DNA of 64,000 nt, from contig JANQRB010000044.1 in assembly GCA_028284775.1 (NCBI GenBank), forward strand, positions 65,342 to 129,341, in the 5' to 3' direction. This stretch comes from Candidatus Kapaibacterium sp. (GTDB taxonomy: Bacteria; Bacteroidota; Ignavibacteria; Kapaibacteriales; UBA7675). A program made the translations under genes and the position numbers. The notes beneath the pieces were generated by a model. That model had not been told where the DNA came from. It saw only the letters and a list, made by a program, of their open reading frames with translations, and made no database searches. Positions 18,821 through 41,597 of this stretch are shown here, piece after piece. Positions within the stretch are counted from its first letter, which is position 1; the number at the start of each line of letters is the position of its first letter.

Positions 18821-19143
18821 AAGCCACTCGGCTTTGTCGTCCTTTACATGATCGCATATTGTTAACTGACGAGCTGAAAGAAGACTCCGCCGGCATCGGA
18901 TTTTCTTCCGCGCGCATCGCAGTCGAACGCGGCTATCGCGCAGCGCGTTAAGCCGAGCCCTTAGATGCAGAAAGAAGCAGAATGATAAAACAATAGCCGC
19001 GGCGGCGACACCTCCTGTTTTCCAGAGGCCGGACAAAGGAAAATACGGCGCAAGCAATTCTTAACTGGAATTCATCTCGCATTTGGTCTATTTTTCGGCA
19101 CCACTGCTTTCGCGAAACTGTTCATTACTTGGAGATCTTCCGG

Positions 19144-22100: not shown

Positions 22101-22383
22101 TCAGGCTCATCAGATCATCTGCTCGGTGGAAGATGACGGCGCAGGTCGCGCATTCGCACGCCGGGCGGTACAGAAAAACAATGCCAGGCACCTGTCGATC
22201 GGCATGAAAGTGGCACGCAAACGGCTGGAACGCCTCAACGCACAGTTCCAACAATCAATGGCGGTCCGGGTCACTGATTTGTACGATGCGCTCGGCAAGG
22301 CCGCCGGTACGCGTGTCGATATTACGCTGGCAGCTACCGCCTTTCACGAAAACCGGGATAATCGGGAGTCCATTCCAGCCTGA
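19144..22383 (+). CDS. Sensor histidine kinase, propeller + Y_Y_Y + TM + LytS-type His_kinase + HATPase_c (paralog 2 of 3)
   Basis: The ORF-track start 19129 is TTG. ATG at 19144 (MKSAFRS...) has GGAGA 8 nt upstream. Same architecture as HK1: Y_Y_Y YAYVLEGVDPDWVYCGTRRYAAYTDLPGGSYTFRVKGSNCDGVW; H-box LQMNPHFMFNSLHSIQNF. The kinase core is ~80% identical to HK1 by eye. Confidence 0.9.
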   Translation: MKSAFRSTTRTCTLFRHRLATIWRSLLAILCCVASAMAQNNPPIRESQRDFQHYGTRDGLSNSEVRVILRDSMGFMWFGTSDGLNKFDGYDFTVYKPDRLDTHSIAGNSIDALHESSNGILWIGTSEGRLCSFDRTREVFRNYVVDSSGTGGAFGSGITKIIEDRHGKLWLITMAGRLIHFDPVDGNCTARNATFADFKAVTLSNRLVYDALEDSTGALWLGTSAGLLRYQPATGSTQRFKPPQNSRVEPRYNDAAYRLMKIPNGNIVAVNNVCLFEFDLSSESFTTLLTSDYVTTKNSNQHFTAISYQPDGTYWIGTIGAGLLQFTPRSDELLLHQHHELFPGSLSGNSVRSLSVDDSGMLWCGTRFGIDMLALTSRHITKVGGERAFTQGLRNLVVRSLLHDRRRNIWIGTDAGAYVMRDSDDGTIRARPDVSPLGDTKYPLNALYEDIHGWIWFGYSSPELIVYQPDSRRVKRYSSLSVNSGITFDYVYSFTESSAGELWFGTRRGLVIYDRDADRFEAFRREMQNDNLLYVFDLLELEDGKWWLATNEGIWVFDAKTRSYVHRYEFKIGDSGALSSNEVWCLHRDRQDRIWVCTYGQGINLYDPQSDSFRCFGESEGLPSGATFGMLEDGQGRFWLSTTKGLSRFDPAGGIFRNFDERDGLQSNEFYFGAYHRSRYSGEMFFGGVKGLNRFYPDSIRDNSQPPPLAITGLQVFGHTRRRELVDGDSLRLSYSDNFISLTFAALDYSNPGKQHYAYVLEGVDPDWVYCGTRRYAAYTDLPGGSYTFRVKGSNCDGVWNEEGIAITLIITPPFWNTLLFRAAVVLLLIAGVAGGLRVRIRAIQRKAELRRKMLESELEALRLQMNPHFMFNSLHSIQNFIIKHDQDTAYSYLARFACLMRMTLENSGAKEITLARELQTLKLYLELETLRFEHRIRYVIDVDNSIDVERQLLPPLLLQPYVENAIVHGLQPKYGKGLITVRIRRQAHQIICSVEDDGAGRAFARRAVQKNNARHLSIGMKVARKRLERLNAQFQQSMAVRVTDLYDALGKAAGTRVDITLAATAFHENRDNRESIPA

Positions 22384-22474
22384 CATTTGCGGTATTCGCT
22401 TCCCCGCACACCGGCAGCCTCCCGGCGCTGCCGGCCGTAATGTACTGCCGCGGCCGACGTCGGTCGCCAAAATC

Positions 22475-22492
22475 AACAGCGTCGCTGTTTTT
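22475..22492 (+). terminator. Weak terminator-like hairpin (AACAGC-GTC-GCTGTT + TTT) downstream of HK2
   Basis: 6-bp stem, 3-nt loop, followed by tttta. Marginal stability; listed only as a possibility. Confidence 0.2.
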
Positions 22493-22683
22493 AGGGTGAT
22501 CTCATCGCTCCAGTCGATGAGTATCCGACCGAAGTGGAGAATCGGATGCTGGAAATCCACCATTGTCCCACAATGAATATTGAGCCTTCGGCCATTCTTC
22601 ATTGTATGGCATCGTCCTTGGACGTAATTTTTCCGTCAACCACTGGAACCTCCGACGCTGATCACAATCAGGAGAAGGACTCG

Positions 22684-25600
22684 ATGTCGGGAGCGCTACG
22701 TTTTTTCACTGCGTCCGGGGGGGCTCGTCCCTGGTCCGACTTTCTACGTATGTACTGCTTAGTCCTTGTATTTTTTTGTTGTTGCGCCCAGTCAGCGGCG
22801 CAGATTGCAGCCATTAGCACGAAGTCCGACCGGGACTTCCAACGTATCGGCACGGAGCATGGACTTTCCAACAGCTACGTTGAAGTAATGTTACAGGATA
22901 GCAAGGGATTCATGTGGTTCGGAACCAGCGACGGCCTTAACAAATATGACGGTTATGAGTTCACGGTCTACAAGCCGGACCGCAGCAATCCGCATTCGAT
23001 TACCGACAATACCGTCACTGCGCTGCTCGAAGCGTCAGACGGTTTATTGTGGATGGGTACGTCCGAAGGCAAACTGTGTTCATTTGACCGCCGAGATGAA
23101 AAGTTTACAACCTACTCAATCGAATCGACGCCGATCTTCGGCACCGCAATCAGCAGCATCACCGGCATTGTCGAAGATCAACACCGAAAGCTCTGGCTGA
23201 CAAACTATGCCAACAGGTTCTTCTGTTTTGATCCGGACAGCGGTGTCTTCAGCGAGCACAGCGCTATTTTCAGGGGCCCGCGCGGTGACGAGGATGTTTA
23301 CTTTAACGTCGAAAGCCTGCTGGCGGACGGCGGCGGCGTTTGGATCGGTACATCGAAGGGCCTGTTGCATTATCAGCCATACAGCGGCAGAGCAGACCAC
23401 TACCCGCAGCCATCCGATACGGATACCTCGCTGTACCATACCGAGGTAATAAGTATTCTCAAGGCCGCCGAAGGAAAATTTATCGTATTAACGAAAGTCG
23501 GCTTGTACAGCTTTGACCCCGCACTGGAAACTTTTACTCCGCTGCTCAGATGCGATCGCGAGCCGGATGCGCCACCTCTCGGCTTTTTTCATGTTTTGGC
23601 TCCCGGCAGCGACGGTAGCTATTGGATTGGTACAATCGCCCATGGTTTATATCAGTTTCTGCCGCAGTCAAATAAACTGATTCATCACGAACATCATCCG
23701 CTGTATCCCAACAGTTTGAGCAGCAATTCGATTTTTGCCCTCGAGGTCGACCGCTTTGGCACGCTGTGGGCCGGTACTCGTTTTGGTGTTAACAAGCTTT
23801 CCGTCTCAGCGAAGAATTTCAGAACAATCGGCGGCGAACGCGCCTTCACTCAAGGAATGCGCAATCGCGTCGTGCGCGCACTGTGCCACGATCGACGGGG
23901 CTACCTCTGGATTGGAACCGACGGCGGACCATACTATATTCACGATAGCGCGACGGAGATGGCTATCGGGCGTCCGAAAGCCGGCGCCCGCGCGTTTTAT
24001 GACAGTCCCGTTAACGCGATTTACGAAGATAGCTACGGCTGGATATGGATCGGATACTCCAACCTGCATCAGACGGCTTACCATCCGGACAAAGGTGAAA
24101 TCAGGCAGTATGCTTTTCTGTCGGATTCATGCCGGCAGGTTCTCGGCCCCATCTATTGCTTCGCGGAGGATCACGAAGGCCGATTATGGACCGGAACCCG
24201 CAAGGGATTGCGGCGTTTCGACAGGGATGCGGATCGATTCGAGGAATTCGGATACGGCATCCTGCAACTCCATAGAACATACTTTTATGTTTTTGACATT
24301 CTGGAAGTGGAAAACGGCATACTGTGGCTCGCCACTAACGAAGGGCTTTATGTCTTTAACACGCGAATAGGGCGCTACATCCGACGTTACACAATGGATG
24401 CGCAGGACAGCAGCTCGATCAGTTCCAATGAAACATGGTGTTTGCATCGCGATCGTCGGGGGCGTATCTGGGTAGGAACGTTCGGACAGGGAATTAATCT
24501 TTACGATCCCCAAAGCGATTCCTTTCGCAGCTTTAACGAAGCGGAAGGACTGCCCAGCGGCGCAACCTTCGGTATACTGGAAGATGATCGCGGACGACTG
24601 TGGATCAGTACCGCCAGAGGTCTTTCCCGCTTCGACCCTCGCAGCGGCATTTTTCGCAATTACGATGTACAGGATGGCCTGCAAAGCAATGCTTTCTACT
24701 TCGGCGCCTACCATCACAGTAAGTACAGCGGCGAAATGTTCTTCGGCGGCGAAAACGGTGTTAACCGCTTTCACCCCGACAGTGTGCGCTATAATCCGCA
24801 CGAGCCGCTGCTCGCGATAACCGAGCTCCAGGTATCAGACAGCACATGGCGCAGAGAAATGCTCGATGGCGACAGCCTGAATCTCTCGTATCGCGACAAT
24901 TTCATCACATTCACGTTTGCCGCGCTTGACTACAACAATCCCGGTAAACATCAATATCGATACATGCTCGAAGGCGTTGACGACAAGTGGGTGGAGTGCG
25001 GCACCCGTCGCTTTGCCGCTTATACCAAACTACCGGCCGGTGACTATACCTTCCGTTTGCAGGGTTCGAACAGCGACGGAGTTTGGAATCATCGCGGCAT
25101 CACCATTCCGGTGAGGATTGCGCCGCCATTCTGGAATACGCTGCTCTTTCGCAGCGGCGTCGCGCTGCTGCTGATTGCTCTGGTAGGCTGGGGGGCACAC
25201 CGGTGGACCAAAGCGGTACAGCGCAAAGCGGATCTTAAACGCCAGGTGCTGGAATCCGAGTTGGAAGCATTGCGTTTGCAGATGAATCCGCACTTCATGT
25301 TTAATTCGCTGCATTCGATTCAACACTTTATCATTAAACATGACCAGGACACGGCCTATACCTATCTGGCGCGTTTTGCCAGTCTGATGCGTATGACACT
25401 GGAAAACTCGCGCAAACAAGAAATATCGCTTGCGCGCGAGTTAATGACGCTGGAATTGTATCTCGAGCTCGAAACACTGCGCTTCGGACACAAGATACGA
25501 TATGTTATTGACCTTGATTGCACGATTGACAGCGAGCAGCTGATGCTGCCGCCGATGCTTCTGCAGCCATTTGTAGAAAATGCCATTGTTCACGGTCTGC

Positions 25601-25899
25601 AACCGAAAATCGGCCCCTGTCTTCTCACAATTGCCGTTCGCCGGCAGGGCGACCAGATTGTCTGCACGGTGGAAGACAACGGCGTCGGCCGCACCTTTGC
25701 CCGCCGGCAGAAACAGAAAAACCGCAACCGGCATCTGTCGATCGGAATGAAGGTCGCGCGCAAGCGACTCGAACGCCTCACCGCCCAAATGCAACAATCC
25801 ATGAGTATACATGTCACCGATCTGTTCGACGCGCATGGTCAGGCCTCCGGCACCCGCGTCGACATCACCCTTGCGGCGAGTGAGATCTCCCGTGTTTAA
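22684..25899 (+). CDS. Sensor histidine kinase, propeller + Y_Y_Y + TM + LytS-type His_kinase + HATPase_c (paralog 3 of 3)
   Basis: Start reassigned to ATG 22684 (MSGALRFF...) with AGGAGAAGG SD 6 nt upstream. Signal/TM MYCLVLVFFCCCAQSAAQ. Y_Y_Y YRYMLEGVDDKWVECGTRRFAAYTKLPAGDYTFRLQGSNSDGVW; H-box LQMNPHFMFNSLHSIQHF. Confidence 0.9.
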   Translation: MSGALRFFTASGGARPWSDFLRMYCLVLVFFCCCAQSAAQIAAISTKSDRDFQRIGTEHGLSNSYVEVMLQDSKGFMWFGTSDGLNKYDGYEFTVYKPDRSNPHSITDNTVTALLEASDGLLWMGTSEGKLCSFDRRDEKFTTYSIESTPIFGTAISSITGIVEDQHRKLWLTNYANRFFCFDPDSGVFSEHSAIFRGPRGDEDVYFNVESLLADGGGVWIGTSKGLLHYQPYSGRADHYPQPSDTDTSLYHTEVISILKAAEGKFIVLTKVGLYSFDPALETFTPLLRCDREPDAPPLGFFHVLAPGSDGSYWIGTIAHGLYQFLPQSNKLIHHEHHPLYPNSLSSNSIFALEVDRFGTLWAGTRFGVNKLSVSAKNFRTIGGERAFTQGMRNRVVRALCHDRRGYLWIGTDGGPYYIHDSATEMAIGRPKAGARAFYDSPVNAIYEDSYGWIWIGYSNLHQTAYHPDKGEIRQYAFLSDSCRQVLGPIYCFAEDHEGRLWTGTRKGLRRFDRDADRFEEFGYGILQLHRTYFYVFDILEVENGILWLATNEGLYVFNTRIGRYIRRYTMDAQDSSSISSNETWCLHRDRRGRIWVGTFGQGINLYDPQSDSFRSFNEAEGLPSGATFGILEDDRGRLWISTARGLSRFDPRSGIFRNYDVQDGLQSNAFYFGAYHHSKYSGEMFFGGENGVNRFHPDSVRYNPHEPLLAITELQVSDSTWRREMLDGDSLNLSYRDNFITFTFAALDYNNPGKHQYRYMLEGVDDKWVECGTRRFAAYTKLPAGDYTFRLQGSNSDGVWNHRGITIPVRIAPPFWNTLLFRSGVALLLIALVGWGAHRWTKAVQRKADLKRQVLESELEALRLQMNPHFMFNSLHSIQHFIIKHDQDTAYTYLARFASLMRMTLENSRKQEISLARELMTLELYLELETLRFGHKIRYVIDLDCTIDSEQLMLPPMLLQPFVENAIVHGLQPKIGPCLLTIAVRRQGDQIVCTVEDNGVGRTFARRQKQKNRNRHLSIGMKVARKRLERLTAQMQQSMSIHVTDLFDAHGQASGTRVDITLAASEISRV

Positions 25900-28698: not shown

Positions 28699-29511
28699 GG
28701 TATCGGGGCCTGTATTCACTACCCAGCCTGCGTGTTCGAAGTAGCATTGATTAGTTTTCTGAAATGTAACACAATTCTTTCCAGTTCAAGCAAACGCTTG
28801 TGTTGTTTGTCTATGGCTTTCGCCGTTTTGCGCGGTCTATCCCAGTGTTTTGTGTTGAGCCTGGAATCGTTTATCAGGGAGATGCTCCGAGAAAAATTCC
28901 GCTAAACGAAGGCCTGGCCGGCAAACTAAAGGCGACCTGGGTCACGGGCCGGTGATGAAAACATCGCGAGAAGGGCCGGCGCAAAACATTTACCGGATCA
29001 CTTGCAACGTCAGTCTTCGGATCACATAGCTAAAAACAGCTACACGATATAGCTAAAACAGGCTATTTACACAGAGCGCATTTTTGTGTACTTTGTACGT
29101 GTGGCTTGAAGGCTTCTTTGTTGTCGCCCCACGGCAAGGCCTGATTTGATTCCACTACCACTGCCAATAATTCCGGATGCGCCGCAGCATTCGGCGGATA
29201 GTCAGATCGGTACAGTTCAAACAGAAAGCTCTTCATGGGACACTGAAGATGCAGAGAACATTTTGTTTAGTGTTTAGCAGCCGGCGCAGTTGACAGAACA
29301 ACAACGCGCTCCTACGTAGTCAGTCGTGATCGCTAGCATGGGCTAAGTTGACTTGCTTCCGGCCAAGGACACAACAAGCACAGCTTCACGATACTTTTGT
29401 GCAATGCTGCAATCAAATTACAGTAGACATGACAAGAAAGAGGCAATCGATCGACGCTCGTTACGGACAAGCTTCAAAATCACATTACGGCTTCGAAAAA
29501 GGGAGGCATCT

Positions 29512-32500
29512 ATGACCCGCCAACTAGTTTACTTGCTAGTATCTGCACTGTTTGCACCAATTGCGACCGTTTATGCCGATGAATTTCCGGACGGACCCGG
29601 CGACCCCTCTTGTCCCGATGATATGGCGACCGGCGCCATCTTCAAAATTTCGCTGCTCAACCAGGGTGTTAATCTAGTAGTGGAGTTGTCGGACGATCAT
29701 ACGATAGTCGGTCGCAGTAATCCGCACAAAGAGGGTGACGCAGCCGACGATGGCGCTCTGATATGCGGCGCAGGTGTTGCGCCTTTCGAGGACATGCTCC
29801 AGTTAGTACCCGACCCATGTCGTCAGCCTAATGATTGGGTGGAATCACCCGTCAGCCGGCGTGAAGTGCACACACAAATACTCGCATTGGAGTTAAAAAG
29901 TGACGACAACAGTGTTATTGTGCGGGCTGGGCAGCCCTTCCTGAATTCGGTTAAGGGCACAGCCCAAGAACGCTTTTTTCGCTATAGTATTGGTGAAGTT
30001 GCCTCAGAATATGACGGCAGTCCGGTCGATTTTTCAAAAGACTTCAGTGCCAAGAGTTATTTCAATGTTTACATCGAAGTTGAAATATTGCTTGGGCCCG
30101 GCCAGACTGTTAAACTCTACAACAAATCGCCAATGGTGCTCAGCTCAGAGCTCACGCAGTTCCCACCGGATTTCGATCTTCCGCAATCGACTTACATTCA
30201 CGATCCCTCGTTCGGTCCGGTTGCACTCTACGATGCGGCCGGTAATCTCTACGCTTATCTCTCGAGCGCGGGCCACGGTTCAACCACGCCTTCAACAAAC
30301 CAGGGCTTCAACAATATCTCCAATGCCGATCCATTGACAAGTCCAGTGTGTTTCGCTGTTGACCGGCAAAGTGACGGCACGAGTGTCGCCATACCAAATC
30401 ATGTCGCGGAGGACTTTGGCCATACTTCACATGTCCTGACGATCTATCAGTCCGCGACAACGGCCAGTGGCGGCGCACCGAATTTGCGAAACGTCCGCAA
30501 GCTTGTCGGCGCTACGGGTGGCACGATCCCGCCAAACTTCGCCACTGACGATGCGATTAACAGCATATCCTTCGGAGTGGACGGCACTATCCGTCCCTAT
30601 CAACCTGCCACAGTATGTTCGCAGCACCCAGGCGTACTGTTCTTTTCCGTTTCGCGTCAATCAACCGGTGTTTCCTGTTCGGATGTCCACCGTAACGCAA
30701 CCGGTTTATCGATTGCTATCGGCGAAGCCGCGGCCGACATTTACGCCTCGCGCGTCGGCAGTTTCGGTCACTACAGTACAACTGATGCAGTCAGCCCGCC
30801 TACCGGCAATAATGTACTGGTGACGGACAATACAGACCTGGGGCTCGTGAGTATGAGTTCCGGTGTTACGCAAGCGAACCTCACAAGCCTGGAGTTGGCA
30901 AACTTCAGCACCACGGGCAGCAGACGCAGTTTTGTGTATCTCAGCCTGACCGGTCCCTCCTTCACCGATAGTCGCGCCACGATTTATGTTTACGATCCCG
31001 CCGACGGCGTTTTTCATCAAAGCAATCTCACGACCTTTGCAACTTTGGCGTCGCTTGGCTTGCAGACGGGTGATATTATCGATGCTTTAGCCGTCTCCGA
31101 CGTCGACCCCTCACAGCAATGTCCACCCACTTCCAATCGAACGATGGATGCAGGTGTAGACCAGGTCTTGTTTTCACTGGCGCCGGGTTCACCCAGCCTG
31201 ACAGGTCAGCGTTCCGCCGCCGACATATTCAAATCGGATTTTGATGGTAGTTTTGCCGAGTTTTGCTCCTACGCCGATTTGGGTTTGTTGCCAACGGACG
31301 ATGTCGATGCGATCGACATCAAACCGATCACGGCGCCCTTTCTACGCTACGACTACCAGAGCTCGGGCGCCAAGACGAGCCTGGATGTCACACTCACGGT
31401 TTCACAGATTGTCAATATTAACTCGGAACGCAGAGGAGGTCGTTATCCATTTGCCTATACAACAATCTCGGGCAGCTTGCCGGGTGGTTTAGCGCTCAAT
31501 CCTCTCACGGGCAATATCAGTGGATCTCCGACTTCAGCACAGGTTAGTCCTCAATCTGTCGATTTTCGTGTGACGGATTTTGACAATTTCACATCCGATG
31601 CTCAAATAGTGTTTATCATCAACCCCGCGCCTACGATCAGCTATCCTACGTCGAATACGATTGCCACAAATCAATCGGTGAGCATCCCGGCAATTGTTAG
31701 CGGCGGCACAGGACCATTTACATTTGGCACGATCGCCGGCGCTCTGCCCGACGGCCTCAGCCTGAATGTGTCGGACGGTACGGTCAGCGGCATTCCCTTA
31801 ATGAATGGAAGCTACACGACAACAATCGAATTGACGGATGCCAATGGTGTAGTGTCAAGTGCAAGTCTTACGATTCATGTCGTTACACAAGCCACAATCC
31901 CCACGGCCATTAATCTCAGGCTTGCGCTGCAGGGGGCGCAAAACGGCGCAAGCTCCGGTACGATAATGAATACCGGATTAAACAATGTTAACCTGCTGCC
32001 ATTAAGCGACCCATACACCGCCTCGGTAACGCTGGCTAGCATACCCTCGACGGTCGTGGATTGGGTTGCGGTTCAACTTCGCAGCGGCACGGGGGCAACA
32101 ACGGCTCTGGCGGAGGGCGTGGGGTTTGTACGCAGCGACGGTCTTGTAACGGGCAGTGACGGCATCTCGCAGCTTCTCTTCGACCAATCGACGCTCCCGC
32201 CGGGCGACTATTACATTGTTGTTAAACACCGCAACCACCTGTGGCTGATGAGCAGCGGCAAAACGCCTCTCGCGACTAATGCCAGCATTGAATACAATTT
32301 TACGTCTTCACAGGCACAGGCATTCAGCAGTTTTCAGGATCCGATGATTCACGACGGCGCGTTCGGGATGGTTACAGGCGATGCTTCCAATGGCGCAGGA
32401 CAGCTCGGCATTATCAATGCCGCGGACCGCGTGGCCGTCCGCAATGCCTCGGGCAGCGTCGGTTACCTGGATGAAGACCTGACGCTCGACGGCCTCGTCA

Positions 32501-32559
32501 GTGCGCCCGACCGCGTTCTTGTGCAAAACAACTCCTTCAGATTTACCCAGGTGCCCTAA
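29512..32559 (+). CDS. Large secreted protein with 'putative Ig' (He_PIG-like) domains
   Basis: ATG 29512 with AAGGGAGG SD 7 nt upstream (strongest SD in the window) and signal peptide MTRQLVYLLVSALFAPIATVYA. Repeats TISGSLPGGLALNPLTGNISGSP and GTIAGALPDGLSLNVSDGTVSGIP are typical He_PIG motifs. No T9SS CTD at the C-terminus. Confidence 0.75.
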   Translation: MTRQLVYLLVSALFAPIATVYADEFPDGPGDPSCPDDMATGAIFKISLLNQGVNLVVELSDDHTIVGRSNPHKEGDAADDGALICGAGVAPFEDMLQLVPDPCRQPNDWVESPVSRREVHTQILALELKSDDNSVIVRAGQPFLNSVKGTAQERFFRYSIGEVASEYDGSPVDFSKDFSAKSYFNVYIEVEILLGPGQTVKLYNKSPMVLSSELTQFPPDFDLPQSTYIHDPSFGPVALYDAAGNLYAYLSSAGHGSTTPSTNQGFNNISNADPLTSPVCFAVDRQSDGTSVAIPNHVAEDFGHTSHVLTIYQSATTASGGAPNLRNVRKLVGATGGTIPPNFATDDAINSISFGVDGTIRPYQPATVCSQHPGVLFFSVSRQSTGVSCSDVHRNATGLSIAIGEAAADIYASRVGSFGHYSTTDAVSPPTGNNVLVTDNTDLGLVSMSSGVTQANLTSLELANFSTTGSRRSFVYLSLTGPSFTDSRATIYVYDPADGVFHQSNLTTFATLASLGLQTGDIIDALAVSDVDPSQQCPPTSNRTMDAGVDQVLFSLAPGSPSLTGQRSAADIFKSDFDGSFAEFCSYADLGLLPTDDVDAIDIKPITAPFLRYDYQSSGAKTSLDVTLTVSQIVNINSERRGGRYPFAYTTISGSLPGGLALNPLTGNISGSPTSAQVSPQSVDFRVTDFDNFTSDAQIVFIINPAPTISYPTSNTIATNQSVSIPAIVSGGTGPFTFGTIAGALPDGLSLNVSDGTVSGIPLMNGSYTTTIELTDANGVVSSASLTIHVVTQATIPTAINLRLALQGAQNGASSGTIMNTGLNNVNLLPLSDPYTASVTLASIPSTVVDWVAVQLRSGTGATTALAEGVGFVRSDGLVTGSDGISQLLFDQSTLPPGDYYIVVKHRNHLWLMSSGKTPLATNASIEYNFTSSQAQAFSSFQDPMIHDGAFGMVTGDASNGAGQLGIINAADRVAVRNASGSVGYLDEDLTLDGLVSAPDRVLVQNNSFRFTQVP

Positions 32560-32904: not shown

Positions 32905-33270
32905 ATGAAAGGCACTCTCCTTATCCGCCTGTTTTCCCTGGTTATAGGCTTTTTTCTGTTAAGCGGCCCTTCCCAATTCGTCGCTGCCCAATGCAGCATG
33001 TACGCTCTCGAGACGCTGGTCAACGATACCGATTGCAGTTTCTACCTGACCTTCGATGATTGTGATGAACAGTCTTTTCAGGCTACTTGGGGTCTTTGCT
33101 GCCGCAATACCAGCACTAGCATAACAGTTGATGCCGGTAGAGTTCGCTACGACGGCATTTGGTACACCCTGCCCGCGCCGGGCGGCAATGTTGCGATTGC
33201 TTCCAGCAGCACCTGCTCCGCGATTATCATGAGCCTCAGCTCCGACGGAACAACACTGAGCTTTCATTAA
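32905..33270 (+). CDS. Small secreted Cys-rich protein (121 aa), unknown function
   Basis: ATG 32905 with AAAGGA 8 nt upstream. Signal peptide MKGTLLIRLFSLVIGFFLLSGPSQFVAAQ. 8 Cys in the mature region (CSMY..CSFY..DDCDE..GLCC..CS). Confidence 0.5.
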   Translation: MKGTLLIRLFSLVIGFFLLSGPSQFVAAQCSMYALETLVNDTDCSFYLTFDDCDEQSFQATWGLCCRNTSTSITVDAGRVRYDGIWYTLPAPGGNVAIASSSTCSAIIMSLSSDGTTLSFH

Positions 33271-33288
33271 ACAAACGATGCCGACTGA

Positions 33289-34122
33289 TTACTCGGCGGC
33301 GTGCCATGCGGCGCGCTGATACACATAGGCCGTTTTCGTCGTCAGCGCAGGATCATACCAGTGCTCCAGCGTCTGTAACACCTCAAAGGTGTCAAGGGCT
33401 ATCGTCGCCAGTTCGCCCGAGTAATGCTCTTTGCTGTCTTTGTAGCGAAAGCTGAATTCGGCGAGCAGCGGCCGGCTGTGGTCGCCCTCGTGCTCATACC
33501 ACAGAATCAGCGCGCATTCGGCCTGCATTCCGGCGGCAGCGCCGAAGTCGAAGGAGCCGCCGGTCAGCACCAGCTCGCGAATACTGAGGTCGCCGACGAT
33601 CAACAGGGCGTCGTCTTCATTGCAGTGGTCGAGCTGCGCCTCCAGGTCGGGAAACAGCCGCAATGGCTCTATCATGGACTCGAGCCTTGCGCTCGCGGCA
33701 ACGGCTGTGCTGGCGGAATAAGAATAAAGGGAGATAAAGGGCGGCTTGATGTCTTCTTCAAATTTAGCTATGCCGTGCCCTTCAAACGCGCTGGCCATGC
33801 AGCGGTCCAGCGTAACGAAGCGGTCGCGGTGACGGAATTTGAGAGTGAGCTCCCGCCGCATCGATTCGAGATCGAGGCGCTCGCGAAAACGGTAATTGTT
33901 ACAGTGCAGAACGCCGGCGCTCGTATCATAGAAGCGGATACGACGCCGGCGGCCGATTGTCGAGGGCGAGCCCTTGAGATCGATCGCAGACGTCTCAAGG
34001 GCGTCCTTGCAGGCATACCAGAAAAGCCCGGTCGCATCCATCATCCGGGCTTCAGGGCCTTCGAACAAATCTGCCTTCAGCAGCATCTTGTATTCACGGG
34101 CGCAAATGGGGCACTCTGCCAT
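33289..34122 (-). CDS. Hypothetical cytoplasmic protein (277 aa) with N-terminal CPIC motif
   Basis: The track start 34131 is GTG. ATG at 34122 (plus 'cat' 34120-34122) with AGGTGA 6 nt upstream, giving MAECPICAREYKML. No recognisable domain. Confidence 0.55.
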   Translation of the reverse strand: MAECPICAREYKMLLKADLFEGPEARMMDATGLFWYACKDALETSAIDLKGSPSTIGRRRRIRFYDTSAGVLHCNNYRFRERLDLESMRRELTLKFRHRDRFVTLDRCMASAFEGHGIAKFEEDIKPPFISLYSYSASTAVAASARLESMIEPLRLFPDLEAQLDHCNEDDALLIVGDLSIRELVLTGGSFDFGAAAGMQAECALILWYEHEGDHSRPLLAEFSFRYKDSKEHYSGELATIALDTFEVLQTLEHWYDPALTTKTAYVYQRAAWHAAE

Positions 34123-34283
34123 ATCGATCACCTGTCTGCAATTGAATCTCGGAATTCATAATATGCGTCCCCTTGTGGACGGCAGGCAGTGATGGAATCA
34201 ATATAGCATTTCCGCCAATTCCGCGAGGGCCGGATTGCGGACAAATCGTCGCCGGCGCGAGCGCTTCGGCAGACGCCGGCCAA

Positions 34284-34622
34284 TCAGTCGGAAGACCCGG
34301 GGCGCCCCCTGAAGCTGATTTCCTCCGGGCCGTACCACGGAAGTAGCTCGAAACTGAAGCGTCCGGCTTTGACGGCGGGGTCAGCGCCCATCAGGTCCTC
34401 GGCTTCCTTCTGCGTTGCCACATCGAGCAAAAAGATACCGGCCAGACTGCCTGCGGGGGCGTCGTCCGGCTGCAGAAAGGGACCGGCGAGGACCAGTTTG
34501 CCGCTCGCGACAAGGCGCTGAATGTTCTGCATGTGCCCCTGGCCGATCGCAAGCGTTGCCGGCGTTTGTTCAGACGTCCAGGCTGCGCCGCGGCGAAGAA
34601 AAGCCATAAAATAGACGCGCAT
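34284..34622 (-). CDS. YciI-like (Dabb-fold) small protein
   Basis: MRVYFMAFLRRG...LVASGKLVLAGPFL...GSLAGIFLLDVATQKEAEDLMGADPAVKAGRFSFELLPW fits the YciI family pattern (GKL..AGP...G..F.L.....EA......DP.VKAG.....PW). The track ORF begins at a TTG (34793) with a 57-aa extension containing no ATG. I chose ATG 34622; the N-terminus is uncertain. Confidence 0.65.
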   Translation of the reverse strand: MRVYFMAFLRRGAAWTSEQTPATLAIGQGHMQNIQRLVASGKLVLAGPFLQPDDAPAGSLAGIFLLDVATQKEAEDLMGADPAVKAGRFSFELLPWYGPEEISFRGRPGSSD

Positions 34623-35246
34623 GACGCTCGCCGCGGCACTGTCCGTCTTTAGCAGACCATCACTTTCGGACGGGGGAGCCGGGGCGGCACACTCGAGAAT
34701 AAGAGTGGCGCAAATAACAAGAATGCAAGTGTCGTCAGAGTTCGCTGCATGGAAGCGCTCCCAAATAGTCAGAGATAGCCAGGCCAATTGCAAGCTGAGC
34801 CCGGTTTGTCGCTTACTGTTCTATTCAACGGAATTGCCTGTTCCTTTACCCTTGCGACCGGGCACAAAAAAGCGCGCCGCCGACATCTCCCCTCTGGCTT
34901 GTAACGATTTCCGGATACCAACAGGCTGCCTAAAAAATGACCTGTTCAGGCTATTTCGCAATCGCGCCGATTTCCGTAATTTTTCGAACACCCACAATTA
35001 AACAAGCGAATCGTCCATTCACAGTGAGCTTAGAAGCACGCCTGGTCTTCTTATGTCATTAACAAACTGGTAATCAGCCGGCAGATCACATGCCTCGGCA
35101 GGCGAGGAGGCTTCGCCTGTCCAATGGACGCAAGGCTGATTACACCACTGCTGGGTCCGCGAAACCGACGACAGACAGCGCGCTGCCGATATGGGCTGCC
35201 GTGGAATGGAGTTATTGTCATTTTTTAACCACTGGTAATTGTAAAC

Positions 35247-38201
35247 ATGAAAACAAAGTATGACGCTCAATTGAAAGGTCATCTTTCCTTTGATGATCAG
35301 AACGTGGTCAGGTACATCAATCACAATCAGCAGTACTGGCTTGCCGCAACGAATAATCCACGGCAGCTTGCCTGCGAATATGTACAGCAGGTGGCGGCTA
35401 CTTTTCACATCGGCGAGAGCCAGGTTAATCATTTACATCAGCGCGTCGATTTTCTCAATCCCCGCAAGCAGGCCATCGAATTCCGTCTAAGCGATGAGAA
35501 GAGCCAGTTCGATGCTACAACAATCGGCTTTTATCAAACCTGTAATAATGTACCGGTCTGGCGCGCGGGACTTTCCGTCAGTGTTAAACAGAATCCGGCC
35601 CGGGTCGTTTTTGCCGTCAACAATGCGCAGCAGAATGTTGCCTGCAGCATGCCGTCAAGCAAACTGATCGATACCTACAAGCGGCTGTTCGAGCAAATTC
35701 AGAAGACCGGGTCCGGCGGTGAAACAGGGGAGGGGGGCGACGAGGGAGATGCTACTTCCACCTTTCTGGAGCAGATACTAAAATCCGGCAGGACCGGTAA
35801 GGTCGGCGGCGGCAAAAAGGCCGGCGAAACGGCCGCCGGCACTCCGCGGGCGCGGCTGAATCGCGGACGCTTTTATGTCTACCGCTACGATAGTTCGCAA
35901 CGACTGGCGGATCATGATCATCAGACGCACGACCCGAGCACAGGCGGTGAAACGGAAGGCCCGCATCCTACACTGCCGCTGCCGGCGGTGCCGGACGCCA
36001 TCAAGGACAAAGAATATTACCTGGTGGCGGAGCTCCTGTTTACATTACCGTATCCGGGCTACGGCAGCATGAACTGGCGGGCCCTTGTGGATGTCGGCAG
36101 CAACACGGTATTATACCTGCGCTCGCTCGTGGATAATGTTAATGGCCTCGTGTTTAAGCAAGATCCGATCACTTCGACCGGCATTCTGTCCAATTCGGCG
36201 GACAAGGACAATATGACGCTCAACCCGCTCCGCAGCGACGAGCTGCTCAGCAACCTGGATGCGCCTGTCGACGACGTTCAATCCTTGCGCGGCAGTTTCG
36301 TTCAATTAGTCGATGACAACCTCCCCACTATCGACGCTCCGACGCAGCCGGGTGGAGATGATTTCGATTATGAAGTGCGCACGAACAACTTCGCGGCCGT
36401 CAGCGCCTACTATCATTCCAACAATCTCTTTGCGACGATCGAAGACCTCGGCTTTAACGTGGCCAGCTATTTCGACGGAACGAGCTTCCCGGTACGCGTG
36501 GACCACAGAGGCAAAAACGGCACGGTTAATGCGTCCTGCAGCGGCGATGCGCAAGGCGATGGTATCGGTCTGGTCGCTTTCGGCCTGGGCCACGCCGCCG
36601 ACACTATGAATCCGATCGGTCGCGCAGTCGATAATTATGTACACTGGCATGAAATCGGTGGCCACGGAATTCTGTGGGATCATGTGGAATCGCCGAACTT
36701 CGGCTTCGCGCACAGTGCCGGCGACTCATTAGCGGCAATCCAGAACGACCCGACCTCGATGCTGCGTGACAAGCCTGAGCGCTTCCGCTACGCGCCTTTT
36801 CGTCCTTTGCGCCGGCTGGACCGTGATGTGACGGCGGGCTGGGCCTGGGGCGGCGCGTTTGATGCCGGTGGCTACCTGAGTGAGGAGATTCTTGCGACCA
36901 CCCTCTTCCGCATTTACCGCGCGCTGGGCGGTGATGCCGATTCACTTAATCGCCGGCGCTTCACTTCACGCGTCGTTTCCTATCTCATTCTGCGGGCGGT
37001 CGGTACATTAACGCCCGGCACCAACCCCTCTGACGCGCTTGGGTTCTGCAATGCGCTTATTGCGGTCGACCTTTTAAACTGGACTTCAGAAGGCATCTTC
37101 GGCGGCGCGTACAACAAAGTGATTCGCTGGGCTTTTGAAAAGCAGGGGCTCTATCAGCCGCCGGCCGCTCCGATGCCGGTGGTATCGGAGGGCGCGCCAC
37201 CGGAAATCGATGTTTACATCAATGACGGTCGCGACGGCGAGTACGAATACCAGAAAGTGCATTGGCATACAACCACAATCTGGAATCGATACGAAGATGA
37301 CGGACTGACAGGCCATCAGCCGCCCAAGCTTGATGAAGTTAACTACGCCTATGTAAAAATCAAAAACCGCGGGACGGAGAATGCGACGAACAATGTGCTG
37401 GTGAAAGGCTTTCACTGTCTGCCCGGTGCCGGTCTCGTCTGGCCCAATGATTTTAACCAGATGGGACCGAATGCGGGCATCAGCGTTCCCAGCGTGGCGG
37501 CCGATGACGCCGAAGAAGTGATCGTCGGTCCCTTCGAATGGTCGCCCAATGAAAACGTCTACGGTCACGACTGTATGCTGATGATTGTCTCGGCGGACGG
37601 CGACCCCAGTAATATCGACAACTTTACGGTGGGTGAGTCGATCGACGAGTGGCGTCTGGTGCCGCACGACAACAATGTCGGCCAACGCAATGTTAACCTG
37701 GTGCCGGGCGACGGCGAAAGCAGAGGACTGATGCTCGGCTTGCATAATGTGGTATTCTGGGCCGGCAACACCAGCCGTCGCCGGGCAGAGATGGAATTGA
37801 AAGTTGCGCTGCCCCGCGTGTTAGCGCAGAAAGGCTGGTCAGTTGGCTTTAAGGACATTCCCGACAGCAGGTTTACGCTTGCGGCCGGCGAACGACGCGC
37901 CGTGGCGCTCCAGGTCACGCCGGGACTGAATTTCAGCAGAGATGACATCGACAATACGCTCGACCGCGACATCAGAGTCGAGCTCTACGGCGATGGCGCG
38001 CTTTTCGGCGGAATGACTTATCGCATCGATCCGAACATGAAGGAGCCGGTCAACTTTCCAGGCAAGGTCAGCGACAGCTGTAATGACAAAGCGCAGGACC
38101 TGCTGGATTGTCTGGACCTGGGCGCTCAAAAAGTCAAAAAGATATGTGTGAAGAAAGTCTCGCTCGATATCGAGCTTGACAATGACTGCGGCTGTGATTA
38201 G
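35247..38201 (+). CDS. Large signal-less hypothetical protein (984 aa) with atypical HEIGGHGILWDH motif and C-terminal Cys cluster
   Basis: Single long ORF from ATG 35247 (no SD). No signal peptide (MKTKYDAQLKGHLSFDDQNV). Gly/Glu-rich linker (GSGGETGEGGDEGD...GKVGGGKKAGE). VHWHEIGGHGILWDHVES is metzincin-like only if one residue is deleted. C-terminus CNDKAQDLLDCLDLGAQKVKKICVKKVSLDIELDNDCGCD. Followed by a strong terminator. Confidence 0.75.
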   Translation: MKTKYDAQLKGHLSFDDQNVVRYINHNQQYWLAATNNPRQLACEYVQQVAATFHIGESQVNHLHQRVDFLNPRKQAIEFRLSDEKSQFDATTIGFYQTCNNVPVWRAGLSVSVKQNPARVVFAVNNAQQNVACSMPSSKLIDTYKRLFEQIQKTGSGGETGEGGDEGDATSTFLEQILKSGRTGKVGGGKKAGETAAGTPRARLNRGRFYVYRYDSSQRLADHDHQTHDPSTGGETEGPHPTLPLPAVPDAIKDKEYYLVAELLFTLPYPGYGSMNWRALVDVGSNTVLYLRSLVDNVNGLVFKQDPITSTGILSNSADKDNMTLNPLRSDELLSNLDAPVDDVQSLRGSFVQLVDDNLPTIDAPTQPGGDDFDYEVRTNNFAAVSAYYHSNNLFATIEDLGFNVASYFDGTSFPVRVDHRGKNGTVNASCSGDAQGDGIGLVAFGLGHAADTMNPIGRAVDNYVHWHEIGGHGILWDHVESPNFGFAHSAGDSLAAIQNDPTSMLRDKPERFRYAPFRPLRRLDRDVTAGWAWGGAFDAGGYLSEEILATTLFRIYRALGGDADSLNRRRFTSRVVSYLILRAVGTLTPGTNPSDALGFCNALIAVDLLNWTSEGIFGGAYNKVIRWAFEKQGLYQPPAAPMPVVSEGAPPEIDVYINDGRDGEYEYQKVHWHTTTIWNRYEDDGLTGHQPPKLDEVNYAYVKIKNRGTENATNNVLVKGFHCLPGAGLVWPNDFNQMGPNAGISVPSVAADDAEEVIVGPFEWSPNENVYGHDCMLMIVSADGDPSNIDNFTVGESIDEWRLVPHDNNVGQRNVNLVPGDGESRGLMLGLHNVVFWAGNTSRRRAEMELKVALPRVLAQKGWSVGFKDIPDSRFTLAAGERRAVALQVTPGLNFSRDDIDNTLDRDIRVELYGDGALFGGMTYRIDPNMKEPVNFPGKVSDSCNDKAQDLLDCLDLGAQKVKKICVKKVSLDIELDNDCGCD

Positions 38202-38231
38202 AAACCATCTTGCAGTTTTTTGGCTTGAAAT

Positions 38232-38271
38232 CAGCAGCCTCTTCGTTGGAAGGGGCTGCTGGTTCTTTTTT
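38232..38271 (+). terminator. Rho-independent terminator of the 984-aa gene
   Basis: cagcagcc-tcttcgttggaagg-ggctgctg hairpin (8-bp outer stem plus 4-bp inner stem), followed by gttctttttt. Confidence 0.8.
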
Positions 38272-38759
38272 GATCTGTAGCTACTTAAGCGGTGAAGCGG
38301 GAAAGATCAATTGTATTCGAACAAACTCAGGTCTAACGTAACACTATCATCATTCCCTGTTGAAGCTGCTGCTTAGCAAAGTTGTCTGGAACACACTGTC
38401 TTGCAGAAGGCAACATATGGCTGATTTCACACCAATGCCAGGTTGACTGTGTTTGACCGATTCTGAAATCGGGAAATCCATTTCAAACCACATCCATGTT
38501 AGAATCGGCACACTTATGTAGTATATGAGTACAGATATACACTAAAGATTGCTTTTGAATCTGCGCGATTCTACCTTAAAACTACTGCCCGATCCTCACA
38601 ATTTGCTACTACGGCACAACGCTGCCATGTATCCCCGTGAGTGAGTTGTTTTTGATCGATAACACAGATTAAACATTGGGAGCGGTATCGTTTTTTTGGA
38701 AGCGCAGCCATGCCGTACACCTGAGTATTAAGACTTTGCCACGCTAATTGGAGTCTGTT

Positions 38760-41597
38760 ATGTTCAGAAAGTTTACTTTGGCTTTTGTTACTTTGACTTT
38801 TTGTTCGCTCTTCACTCTTGAAGCTGCCAATGAACGCACGCACAATTGGTACTTCGGGCAAAATGCTGGATTAACTTTTTCCTCAGGTGCACCTGCGGTA
38901 TTAACAAATGGAGCGATGAATACGGGAGAAGGTTGTTCTTCCATAAGTGACAAAAGCGGCAATCTCGAGTTTTACACTAGCGGTATCAATGTGTATACTC
39001 GCAACCATACCGTAATGGTTAACGGCACAGGCTTGGGAGGAGACAATTCCTCAACTCAATCGGCGCTCATCGTGCCTAAGCCCGGCAGTACAAGCATCTA
39101 CTACATTTTCACCGCCGACGCCTGGGGTCGCCCGCGCGGCATCCGCTATTCCGAAGTGGATATGACTCTGCAGGGCGGTCTGGGCGAAGTGACCGTTAAG
39201 AATGTTCAACTCATTACGCCGGCGCATGAAAAGCTGACAGCTGTTTGCCATGCCAATGGCAGCGACTATTGGGTAATTGCGCACGAACGCAACCACAATA
39301 GATTCAGCGCCTATCTCGTGAGCAACACAGGCGTCAACACCACTCCGGTGACCAGTACCAGCGCACCCACCGCAATGAGCAATATGCACGACATGCCCGG
39401 TGCGCTCAAAGCTTCCCCGGACGGCACGAAGCTGGTACAGGCGATATATACGCGAGGTTTGTTTGAACTCTACGATTTCGACAATTCAACCGGAATGGCT
39501 TCCAATCGAATTCAATTAGCGCCCGCACCGGCGCATAGAAACGCATATGGAGTAGAGTTCTCGCCAAATAGCCAGGTTGTTTACTGCGCTTACCAGACCG
39601 ACTGGATTTACCAATATGATCTTAACGCGGGTTCCGCGAGTGCCATAGTCAACTCCGCGACAGCAATCGGCAATTCCGTTGACATGCACACTTCACTTCA
39701 ATTGGGATCTGACGGCAAAATTTATGTCGCTCGGCCCGGTAGCGTATACCTTGCTGTTATCAATCAACCCAATACTTTAGGCCTGGGCTGCAGTTTCGTT
39801 GATAATGGGATAAATCTTGGTTCGGGCAAATCAAGAGCTGGTTTGCCGAACTTTGCGTCGTGTTTTCTGGCTCCCTGCGACATCCCCTGGCCCCGACATC
39901 CCTTGGGTCCTTTAAGCGGTGGTTCAGACTATGACTTCGAATACGGTTATGCCGTAACGGCTGACCCTGACGGCAACATCTACAACACGGGCCATATTAC
40001 AGGAACAACGGACTTCGAGGATGGCATCAGTGTAACACCGAAAGGCGGCCAGGATCTGTTCCTATCGAAATACAATGACTGCGAAACCGAATGGGCTATC
40101 AGCGGTGGCGGTGCAGATGATGTACTTGTCTATGCTACATCTGTCGACCATGATGGGGTGGACGATATGATTTACCTTAGCGGTGTTACAGATGGTCCCA
40201 TGACCTTCGGCGGAATATTTCTTAATGTGACTACAACGAAAGGGGTGGTTGCCAAGGTAGATCCCAATGGGAATGTTATCTGGGCTCGAGCGATCGATGG
40301 CGCTTCGGCTCACCCGAATAAGGTATATGATGTTAAATATGATGAAAATACTCAGGAAGTCTATGTTGTAGGCGCATTTAACAAAGAAATCGAGTTCGCC
40401 GACTTTTCAGAGACTAGTTTTGGCTATGGCGAATGGATCGCAGGTCGCCAGTTGAGCTGGCCGCAGCACGACAATGACTGGGATATGTTTATCGCAAAGT
40501 TCGATCAAAACGGCAACGAACTATGGCTGGACACTTACGGTGGCTATTTAGATGATGAAGCCTATGCTTTGGACATCGATATTAACACAAGCGATGTCTA
40601 CATCACCGGCTATACGATGGATCCTAATCCTAATTCCTTCGGAAGCGGCAGCCCCTTAAACTGGGGACAGGAAGATATTTTTATCGGTAAATACGACGCT
40701 TCCGGATCGCGCCAGTGGTCGGATTTCGTTGGCGGGAACAGCCGGGACGTCGGAAACGATATCGTGGTTGAAGGCAACAGCGGCAACGGCCAGGTCTTTG
40801 TCGCCGGCAGTTTCGAAGACCTTCTCTCGGGTTCGGGGGTAGCCAGCGCGGGACAATCGGATGTTCTCGTGCTTTCCTATGATCAGAATGGTTCGCAGCT
40901 CTGGTTTGATCATGGCGGATGGCAGGCAGTTGATGAAGCTATGGCCATAGACTTAACGCCTGGTGGGGAAGTGATCGTCACCGGCAATTTCGACCATGAG
41001 CTGTCCTTCCCGAACAATCCCATACTCGACATTGCGACACTCACGGGCGAGAACATCTTTCTCGCCGCCTATGACCCCGGCGGCAGCGGCTTGTGGTCAA
41101 TTCCCGCGACGCCCATGGGTGGCTGGACAAGAGTGAAGGATGTGGTGGTGAGCGGTGAATACTCCTTTATAACCGGAGGTGTTTGGGATGGCTCGGTACA
41201 GTTCGGCACGGCGCCAGTCATCAGCACAACGCCTGGTACGGATATCTATGTCGCGCGCCTGAATAATGATGCGATAGTATTTCAGAAACCGACGTCGCGG
41301 GACCGATTCACTCCAGCCGAAACGGCGACAGTACTACGAATGGAGACCGAAGCGGGGGTCTCTCCTAATCCGACGACCGGCAAAATTGTCATCACGCCGC
41401 CGGTTGCAGATGAATCCCGGCTCCGGGAAGTTCGCATCAGCGACATCTTCGGCAATGAGGTACAGTGCCCGGTCAGATTTAACAGGTTGGACAACACAAT
41501 TGACATCGACTTAAACGGCAATGCGCCCGGACTCTATTTCTATTCGCTTCGGTACGACAATTGCCTGCTCAGCGGAAAGTCGATGCTGATCGAATAA
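38760..41597 (+). CDS. Secreted beta-propeller repeat (SBBP-like) protein with T9SS C-terminal sorting domain
   Basis: The track start 38748 is TTG. ATG 38760 (MFRKFTLAFVTLTFCSLFTLEAANE signal) with TGGAG SD 8 nt upstream. Repeated ...YxTGxT.GxxDF...GG.D.F..K.. units. C-terminus GVSPNPTTGKIVITPP...GLYFYSLRYDNCLLSGKSMLIE matches the T9SS CTD. Confidence 0.8.
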   Translation: MFRKFTLAFVTLTFCSLFTLEAANERTHNWYFGQNAGLTFSSGAPAVLTNGAMNTGEGCSSISDKSGNLEFYTSGINVYTRNHTVMVNGTGLGGDNSSTQSALIVPKPGSTSIYYIFTADAWGRPRGIRYSEVDMTLQGGLGEVTVKNVQLITPAHEKLTAVCHANGSDYWVIAHERNHNRFSAYLVSNTGVNTTPVTSTSAPTAMSNMHDMPGALKASPDGTKLVQAIYTRGLFELYDFDNSTGMASNRIQLAPAPAHRNAYGVEFSPNSQVVYCAYQTDWIYQYDLNAGSASAIVNSATAIGNSVDMHTSLQLGSDGKIYVARPGSVYLAVINQPNTLGLGCSFVDNGINLGSGKSRAGLPNFASCFLAPCDIPWPRHPLGPLSGGSDYDFEYGYAVTADPDGNIYNTGHITGTTDFEDGISVTPKGGQDLFLSKYNDCETEWAISGGGADDVLVYATSVDHDGVDDMIYLSGVTDGPMTFGGIFLNVTTTKGVVAKVDPNGNVIWARAIDGASAHPNKVYDVKYDENTQEVYVVGAFNKEIEFADFSETSFGYGEWIAGRQLSWPQHDNDWDMFIAKFDQNGNELWLDTYGGYLDDEAYALDIDINTSDVYITGYTMDPNPNSFGSGSPLNWGQEDIFIGKYDASGSRQWSDFVGGNSRDVGNDIVVEGNSGNGQVFVAGSFEDLLSGSGVASAGQSDVLVLSYDQNGSQLWFDHGGWQAVDEAMAIDLTPGGEVIVTGNFDHELSFPNNPILDIATLTGENIFLAAYDPGGSGLWSIPATPMGGWTRVKDVVVSGEYSFITGGVWDGSVQFGTAPVISTTPGTDIYVARLNNDAIVFQKPTSRDRFTPAETATVLRMETEAGVSPNPTTGKIVITPPVADESRLREVRISDIFGNEVQCPVRFNRLDNTIDIDLNGNAPGLYFYSLRYDNCLLSGKSMLIE

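What the first reader, a model, noticed from the sequence alone, without database searches (positions are those of the whole stretch)
32905..38271. Block of unknowns: Cys-rich secreted mini-protein, CPIC-motif protein, YciI-like protein and a signal-less 984-aa protein with HEIGGHGILWDH and a Cys-rich tail
Seen in sequence: the 984-aa ORF has no signal peptide, a Gly/Glu-rich linker, the motif VHWHEIGGHGILWDHVE, and a C-terminal cluster C-x5-...-C-x...-C-x...-CGCD. It ends in the strongest terminator in the window. The motif is HExxxHxxxxxH; it becomes a metzincin HExxHxxGxxH only after deleting one Gly, and the following HVE is reminiscent of the astacin His-Glu. Neighbours are a 121-aa secreted protein with 8 Cys, a 277-aa protein starting MAECPICAREY, and a YciI-like protein. 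Inference: possibly a new zincin-like enzyme or toxin family with accessory partners, but I cannot place it in a known family by eye.
Basis: partly seen in the sequence, partly recalled or inferred. Interest (0 to 1): 0.6.

Follow-up and report, generated by a model that had tools for sequence, protein, structure and literature searches.

The report
Signal-less thermolysin-fold zinc protease, uncharacterised family
The 984-residue protein belongs to a large, unstudied family of thermolysin/fungalysin-like zinc proteases that keep an inhibitory pro-domain but have no export signal and carry an altered zinc-binding motif; the three neighbouring genes are unrelated to it.

The parts
35247..35696 (+). 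N-terminal FTP/PepSY-like pro-domain (residues 1-150) of the 984-aa protein
35697..35996 (+). Mostly disordered Gly/Thr/Glu-rich linker (residues ~151-250) containing one conserved strand, RGRFYVYRYD (203-213)
   Evidence: pLDDT 33-50 except for the strand. Length and sequence vary across homologues while R208, F209, Y212, Y214 and R219 are conserved.
35997..37181 (+). Thermolysin/fungalysin-fold catalytic domain (residues ~251-645)
36648..36665 (+). HEIGGH (H468, E469, H473): zinc-binding/catalytic motif with a one-residue Gly insertion
   Evidence: H, E and H are 100% conserved in 110 representatives. In the 269 sequences held, 155 read HExxxH and 100 read HExxH.
36711..36725 (+). HSAGD (H489...D493): inferred third zinc ligand and second-shell Asp, the counterpart of thermolysin E166...D170
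   Evidence: H489 99% (the single exception is Glu, P0228 'FAESGGD'); G492 and D493 100%. Constant +16 spacing from the second His in both clades. Lies on the helix that follows the active-site helix.
37194..37721 (+). First β-sandwich (CARDB-like, residues ~650-825), the best-conserved part of the protein, rich in invariant Asp/Asn (DVYIDDGRxGEY, DNN) and carrying H774-D775-C776
   Evidence: invariant columns. PF07705 CARDB in 6 of 56 relatives. 2kut_A similarity. Homologous to the same module in the M1-like partner family (hhalign prob 97.7%, E 1.9e-12).
37734..38036 (+). Second β-sandwich (residues ~830-930, ends with GGMTYRxDP); absent from many relatives
38064..38201 (+). Cys-rich C-terminal tail (C945, C955, C967, C981, C983; a helix, then a KVKKxCVKKVSLDIELD strand, then CxC) and the stop codon
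   Evidence: Conserved pattern in both clades; low model confidence.
38229..38274 (+). Intrinsic terminator (16-bp stem plus T-run); the gene is monocistronic here
33289..34122 (-). Unrelated neighbour: 277-aa CYTH/triphosphate-tunnel-metalloenzyme-fold protein ('CPIC' itself is not conserved)
34284..34622 (-). Unrelated neighbour: 112-aa YciI-like protein
   Evidence: PF03795 E 1.2e-9, 39 bits against a cut-off of 24; called as a 112-aa gene.
32905..33270 (+). Unrelated neighbour: 121-aa orphan ORF with a signal-peptide-like N-terminus and 6 Cys
   Evidence: Only a self-hit in the 5.8-billion-cluster database; Cys count.

Best explanation
The 984-aa gene encodes a stand-alone, latent (zymogen-type) zinc endopeptidase of the thermolysin/fungalysin structural type, from a large family that has not been described. 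Proposed mechanism: the catalytic zinc is held by H468 and H473 of an HE-x-G-G-H motif. This is an ancestral HExxH with one inserted Gly, probably accommodated by a distorted helical turn as in TldD and DPP III. The third ligand is H489 on the next helix, standing where thermolysin has Glu166. E469 is the general base, and D493 plays the role of thermolysin Asp170. The N-terminal FTP/PepSY-like domain acts as an intramolecular chaperone and inhibitor, joined by a long disordered linker that is the likely site of (auto)processing. Two β-sandwich domains and a Cys-rich tail mediate targeting or assembly rather than catalysis. The first β-sandwich is a module shared with other hydrolases that sit next to the gene in other genomes. 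Because the family lacks signal peptides, the enzyme most likely works inside the cell, possibly at the inner face of the membrane, or leaves it by a non-classical route. Shown: the fold, the domain architecture, motif conservation, the clade history of the insertion, the absence of signal peptides, and the lack of conserved partners in this window. Inferred: the ligand assignment, latency, processing, localisation and substrate.
Against: No coordinates were available to me, so I could not measure whether H468, H473 and H489 cluster, or whether the pro-domain or the tail occupies the cleft. Sequence similarity to M4/M36 catalytic domains is below significance (no Pfam hit; hhalign prob 4.7%), so homology rests mainly on a predicted structure. 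The model around residues 420-490 has only moderate confidence (pLDDT 50-74). FTP/PepSY pro-domains, CARDB-like domains, Asp/Asn-rich possible Ca sites and fusions to a lectin or an S1/P1 nuclease are typical of extracellular enzymes, which conflicts with a cytoplasmic location. No substrate is indicated by gene context in this window.
Confidence: 0.72

Rival explanations
1. It is a secreted or extracellular protease after all, exported by a signal-peptide-independent route (vesicles, lysis, or an unrecognised signal such as the conserved Cys-rich C-terminal tail), and the pro-domain is removed outside the cell as in thermolysin and fungalysin.
For: The domain repertoire is that of secreted proteases: FTP/PepSY pro-domain, CARDB-like β-sandwiches and Asp/Asn-rich invariant loops resembling Ca sites. 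Relatives are fused to a fucose lectin, HYDIN/ASH Ig domains and an S1/P1 nuclease. Neighbours in the window and in Methanolobus are secreted proteins. The C-terminal tail is conserved.
Against: Essentially no member has a Sec/Tat-type N-terminus. The family occurs in monoderm and diderm bacteria and in archaea, so no single specialised secretion system can explain export. No secretion genes recur in the flanks. Some relatives are fused to HAD domains or end in tail-anchor-like TM segments.
Confidence: 0.25
2. It is a catalytically dead pseudo-protease: the Gly insertion in HExxH destroyed zinc binding, and the protein now serves as a binding or scaffold protein.
For: HExxxH is non-canonical for the thermolysin fold. 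The β-sandwich is better conserved than the catalytic domain.
Against: H, E, H, H489 and D493 stay invariant within the insertion clade over 43-60% overall identity, which would not be expected after loss of function. HExxxH enzymes (TldD, DPP III) are active.
Confidence: 0.08
3. It is a metzincin/astacin-like enzyme that uses H468, H473 and H479 as its three ligands.
For: H479 is 6 residues after H473, the metzincin spacing, and it is invariant within the close clade.
Confidence: 0.03
4. The four genes at 32905-38271 form a functional cassette: the protease plus accessory partners.
For: Physical proximity only.
Against: The genes lie on different strands, and the 984-aa gene has its own long upstream spacer and terminator. 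There is no co-occurrence in 85 other loci. The CPIC/TTM family is independently widespread, and the mini-protein is an orphan.
Confidence: 0.03

Closest known systems
Fungalysin (MEROPS M36) and thermolysin/pseudolysin (M4), clan MA(E)
   Different: No significant sequence similarity to the M4/M36 catalytic models. HExxxH instead of HExxH in this clade. His instead of Glu as the inferred third ligand (HxxGD versus ExxxD). No signal peptide. A different C-terminal extension (two β-sandwiches and a Cys tail).
Dipeptidyl-peptidase III (M49) and TldD (M103): HExxxH metallopeptidases
   Same: A six-residue HExxxH motif, here even HExxGH as in DPP III. In those enzymes both His still bind the metal through a distorted helical turn (PMC5810440).
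Metzincins/astacins (HExxHxxGxxH plus Met-turn)
   Same: A His lies 6 residues after the second His.
   Different: That His is not conserved across the family, the Gly at +3 is absent, and the fold is thermolysin-like.
CYTH / triphosphate tunnel metalloenzymes (E. coli YgiF, thiamine triphosphatase); applies to the CPIC neighbour only
   Different: No Pfam CYTH hit. The N-terminal motif reads S-R-E-Y-K rather than ExExK. About 90 extra residues.

Membership tests
Thermolysin-like Glu-zincins (MEROPS M4/M36, clan MA(E)) | Thermolysin-type catalytic fold | tested here: met
   [not shown]
Thermolysin-like Glu-zincins (MEROPS M4/M36, clan MA(E)) | HExxH on the active-site helix | tested here: not met
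   The window protein and its clade read HE-x-G-G-H (HExxxH). The sister clade of the same superfamily has HExxH.
Thermolysin-like Glu-zincins (MEROPS M4/M36, clan MA(E)) | Glu as third zinc ligand (ExxxD on the following helix) | tested here: not met
   The position is His in 109 of 110 representatives and Glu in one; the Asp four residues later is invariant. The ligand role itself is inferred, not measured.
Thermolysin-like Glu-zincins (MEROPS M4/M36, clan MA(E)) | Significant match to the Pfam/NCBIfam Peptidase_M4 or M36 catalytic models | tested here: not met
   No hit at E<=1 for the window protein, and none in 56 relatives at E<=0.01.
Thermolysin-like Glu-zincins (MEROPS M4/M36, clan MA(E)) | N-terminal FTP/PepSY propeptide | tested here: met
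   [not shown]
Thermolysin-like Glu-zincins (MEROPS M4/M36, clan MA(E)) | Signal peptide / secreted enzyme | tested here: not met
   No hydrophobic N-terminus in the window protein, and in about 268 of 269 relatives by a hydrophobicity heuristic.
Thermolysin-like Glu-zincins (MEROPS M4/M36, clan MA(E)) | Zinc-dependent endopeptidase activity | not testable with these tools
   Needs biochemistry.
Metzincins / astacins | HExxHxxGxxH with a conserved third His, and a Met-turn | tested here: not met
   [not shown]
DPP III (M49) | HEXXGH plus the second motif EEXR(K)AE(D), and the M49 fold | tested here: not met
   [not shown]
ZmpB (label given by JGI to some homologues) | Similarity to ZmpB-type peptidases | tested here: not met
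   [not shown]
CYTH/TTM (the CPIC neighbour) | Triphosphate-tunnel β-barrel fold | tested here: met
   [not shown]
CYTH/TTM (the CPIC neighbour) | N-terminal ExExK motif / Pfam CYTH match | tested here: inconclusive
   The family consensus is S8-R9-E10-Y11-K12, so only the second Glu and the Lys are present. No PF01928 hit at E<=1.
YciI-like (PF03795) | Pfam match above the gathering score | tested here: met
   39 bits against a cut-off of 24, E 1.2e-9.

The most novel reading that the evidence does not exclude
The protease is one member of a modular set of signal-less hydrolases: this thermolysin-fold endopeptidase, an M1-like peptidase, HAD or histidine phosphatases, and a protein-glutaminase. 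At least three of these enzyme types carry the same highly conserved CARDB-like β-sandwich. That module would target them to a common intracellular, or unconventionally exported, substrate or assembly. This would be a previously unrecognised protein-processing system spread by horizontal transfer across Bacteria and Archaea, with the window carrying a solitary copy.
Probability: 0.2. Interest if true: 0.7.

Novelty: new variant of a known kind. Interest (0 to 1): 0.5.

Why it matters
Thermolysin- and fungalysin-type proteases are textbook secreted enzymes and are defined as Glu-zincins. This family is very large, lacks export signals, and is found in both bacteria and archaea. It keeps the fold and the pro-domain but replaces the Glu ligand by His, and in one clade it lengthens HExxH to HExxxH. 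It would probably merit its own peptidase family. It offers a natural experiment on how much the zincin metal site can be altered. It also raises the question of what a zymogen-type thermolysin-fold enzyme does without a signal peptide. For annotation, more than 1,000 'hypothetical protein' or mislabelled 'ZmpB' entries could be renamed.

Tried and rejected
- Pfam, NCBIfam, PADLOC, PHROGs and PDB sequence searches with the window protein gave nothing.
- hhalign of the close-clade profile against thermolysin gave nothing. Only the broader profile gave a weak colinear match.
- DPP III-like origin of HExxGH was rejected: the fold differs, the second motif is missing, and the HExxH sister clade shows an independent insertion.
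- Defence-system or mobile-element reading: no PADLOC or PHROGs hit, absent from phages, only 2 of 72,556 plasmids (both non-mobilizable), and no mobile or defence genes seen nearby.
- T9SS or T1SS export was considered and set aside. T9SS needs a Sec signal, and the family also occurs in monoderm bacteria and archaea.
- The afdb50 Foldseek library was unavailable.
- Co-variation between C776 and a Cys-rich C-terminus (35 of 36; Fisher p=5e-9) is confounded by clade membership and is kept only as a lead.
- Literature searches for the family's motifs, and for operons combining a protein-glutaminase with a metalloprotease, found nothing relevant.

Full report
OBSERVATION. The four ORFs are as described. 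The 984-aa ORF (35247-38201, +) starts at the first possible start codon and has no hydrophobic N-terminus. It contains VHWHEIGGHGILWDHVE at residues 465-481, a Gly/Thr/Glu-rich segment at ~155-240, and a C-terminal Cys cluster (C945, C955, C967, C981, C983, ending DCGCD). It is preceded by about 450 nt of non-coding DNA. It is followed by a 16-bp hairpin plus T-run at 38229-38274, which has the lowest folding energy (-28.3 kcal/mol) of all hairpin/T-run sites in the window, narrowly ahead of two others. The only factual error is that the 121-aa protein has 6 Cys, not 8.

WHAT THE 984-aa PROTEIN IS. Sequence libraries are silent: no Pfam, NCBIfam, PADLOC, PHROGs or PDB sequence hit. It nevertheless has more than 1,000 close homologues that are 43-60% identical over the full length. 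A profile search finds 3,257 clusters at 50% identity with E<=1e-3, of which 863 have E<=1e-30. An AlphaFold2 model built on 36 homologues (pTM 0.82) shows:
- a compact N-terminal domain (residues 1-150);
- a disordered linker;
- an α/β catalytic domain (~251-645);
- two β-sandwiches (~650-825 and ~830-930);
- a poorly modelled tail.

THE MOTIF. Among the 269 family sequences held, 155 read HExxxH (HE[LIM]GGHG, including the window protein and all close hits) and 100 read canonical HExxH (HEFGHA). So the window's motif is an ancestral HExxH with one inserted Gly. Both clades are followed, at a constant +16 from the second His, by H-x-x-G-D. Across 110 diverse representatives, H468, E469, H473, G492 and D493 are 100% conserved and H489 is 99%. 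The single exception (P0228) has Glu, which gives E-x-x-G-D, the thermolysin ExxxD arrangement. It lies within a helix predicted to run from 463 to 480, with Leu where metzincins need Gly. I therefore infer that zinc is bound by H468, H473 and H489, with E469 as the base and D493 as the counterpart of thermolysin D170. By the published definitions (Glu-, Met- and Asp-zincins; PMC3890501), this is a thermolysin-fold enzyme that is not literally a Glu-zincin. HExxxH is compatible with catalysis: in TldD and DPP III both His bind the metal, and the extra residue is taken up by a distorted helical turn (PMC5810440). The resemblance to the DPP III HEXXGH motif is convergent, because the fold differs, the second DPP III motif is absent, and the HExxH sister clade shows an independent insertion. 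I had no model coordinates, so the ligand geometry is inferred and not measured.

DISTRIBUTION AND CONTEXT. A scan of one genome per species found relatives in 394 of 185,579 species. They are scattered over Cyanobacteria, Planctomycetota, Proteobacteria, Bacteroidota, Verrucomicrobiota, Nitrospirota, Chloroflexota, Actinomycetota, Acidobacteriota, Gemmatimonadota and the archaea Methanolobus, a Euryarchaeota MAG and Nitrososphaera. The combination of rarity, breadth and 43-60% identity suggests horizontal transfer. Even so, the gene is almost absent from plasmids (2 of 72,556) and absent from phages. A hydrophobicity heuristic finds essentially no signal peptide in 269 members, and the one clear exception seen by eye is P0228. 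C-termini are modular: proteins end after the first β-sandwich, after the second, or with the Cys tail, and some end in TM or basic amphipathic segments. The rest of the window is ordinary chromosome of an FCB/Bacteroidota-like organism: Reg_prop/Y_Y_Y kinases, OmpA, and a Por_Secre_tail neighbour.

REAL RECURRENT PARTNERS, ABSENT FROM THIS WINDOW. Unbiased clustering of flanking ORFs shows that in about 20 of 82 loci the homologue is followed on the same strand, after a gap of 7-90 nt, by a ~770-aa signal-less protein. That protein carries GGMEYEGG...HETFH-x18-E. Its best PDB matches are M1 peptidases (6a8z_A, E 0.01), which is weak support. It shares the first β-sandwich with the window's family (hhalign prob 97.7%, E 1.9e-12, window residues 654-820). 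In three loci a HAD-plus-β-sandwich protein lies between the two genes. In 8 loci a protein-glutaminase (PF18626, E down to 1e-33) is adjacent. Histidine-phosphatase and M28 genes, or fusions to them, also recur. The window has none of these within its 64 kb.

MECHANISM AND CONFIDENCE. Best explanation (0.72): a latent, pro-domain-bearing, thermolysin-fold zinc endopeptidase with an H/H/H metal site, acting alone in this genome. The β-sandwiches and tail would serve targeting or assembly. Localisation is unresolved. The absence of signal peptides, the tail anchors and the HAD fusions argue for the cytoplasm. The extracellular-type domains and possible Ca sites argue for unconventional export (rival, 0.25). 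The pseudo-enzyme (0.08), metzincin (0.03) and four-gene-cassette (0.03) readings are unlikely.

NOVELTY. This is a new variant of a known kind: a large uncharacterised family in the thermolysin-like zincin clan, with an unusual ligand set, an HExxxH clade and no export signal. Interest 0.5.

Noticed in passing
L011:7756-10074, L017:9004-11301, L025:9044-11359, L043:7596-9908, L048:8976-11270, L050:9048-11402, L078:9042-11345 and others: In about a quarter of the genomes with a homologue, the next gene on the same strand encodes a ~770-aa signal-less protein. It carries GGMEYEGG...HETFH-x18-E (M1-aminopeptidase-like; no Pfam hit; best PDB match an M1 peptidase at E 0.01) and shares the window protein's first β-sandwich (hhalign E 1.9e-12).
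   Followed up: partly
L022:11412-12692, L023:4648-5754, L025:11457-12395, L049:9012-10127, L059:7731-8879, L062:8990-10063, L065:11284-12357, L078:11453-12388: A ~310-430-aa signal-less protein with a protein-glutaminase domain (PF18626, E down to 1e-33) lies next to the protease, or next to the protease/M1-like pair, in 8 loci from different phyla.
   Followed up: partly
L040:5458-7116, L064:5533-7137, L082:5533-7167; also L088 (Mesorhizobium pOM4) 9358-11970 and L004:7376-7936: HAD-phosphatase-plus-β-sandwich proteins, histidine-phosphatase-family genes and M28 peptidases recur beside relatives or are fused to them. The same β-sandwich module is therefore attached to at least three different enzyme types.
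   Followed up: partly
window 37194-37721 (residues 650-825): The first β-sandwich is the most conserved part of the protein. D655, D660, G661, D786, D808, N809 and N810 are invariant even in distant relatives, and the H774-x-C776 motif is shared with the partner family. This suggests a metal (Ca or Zn) site or a binding surface of unknown function.
   Followed up: no
window 38064-38198 (residues 940-984) and the C-termini of relatives (P0236 ...WIECCC, P0215 ...NCYENCCF, P0208 ...CECQDCACGDCE): Cys-rich C-terminal ends recur in both clades. They occur almost only when the C776-equivalent is also Cys (35 of 36; confounded by phylogeny). Other relatives instead end in TM or basic amphipathic segments (P0162, P0185, P0233, P0139, P0147, P0167). 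The role of these tails is unexplained.
   Followed up: partly
window 33289-34122 (-): The 'CPIC' protein belongs to an uncharacterised ~270-aa family with a CYTH/TTM tunnel fold that escapes the Pfam CYTH model. One database member is attributed to the green alga Ostreobium quekettii (P0328).
   Followed up: partly
window 15520-25899 (+): Three tandem ~1,080-1,120-aa paralogues with Reg_prop β-propeller, Y_Y_Y and His_kinase domains (Bacteroidota-style hybrid sensor kinases).
   Followed up: no
window 29353-32559 (+) and 38748-41597 (+): The genes flanking the block encode large secreted proteins: a He_PIG-domain protein, and a protein with a weak Por_Secre_tail (T9SS) match. This points to an FCB-group host.
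   Followed up: no
[not shown]
   Followed up: yes
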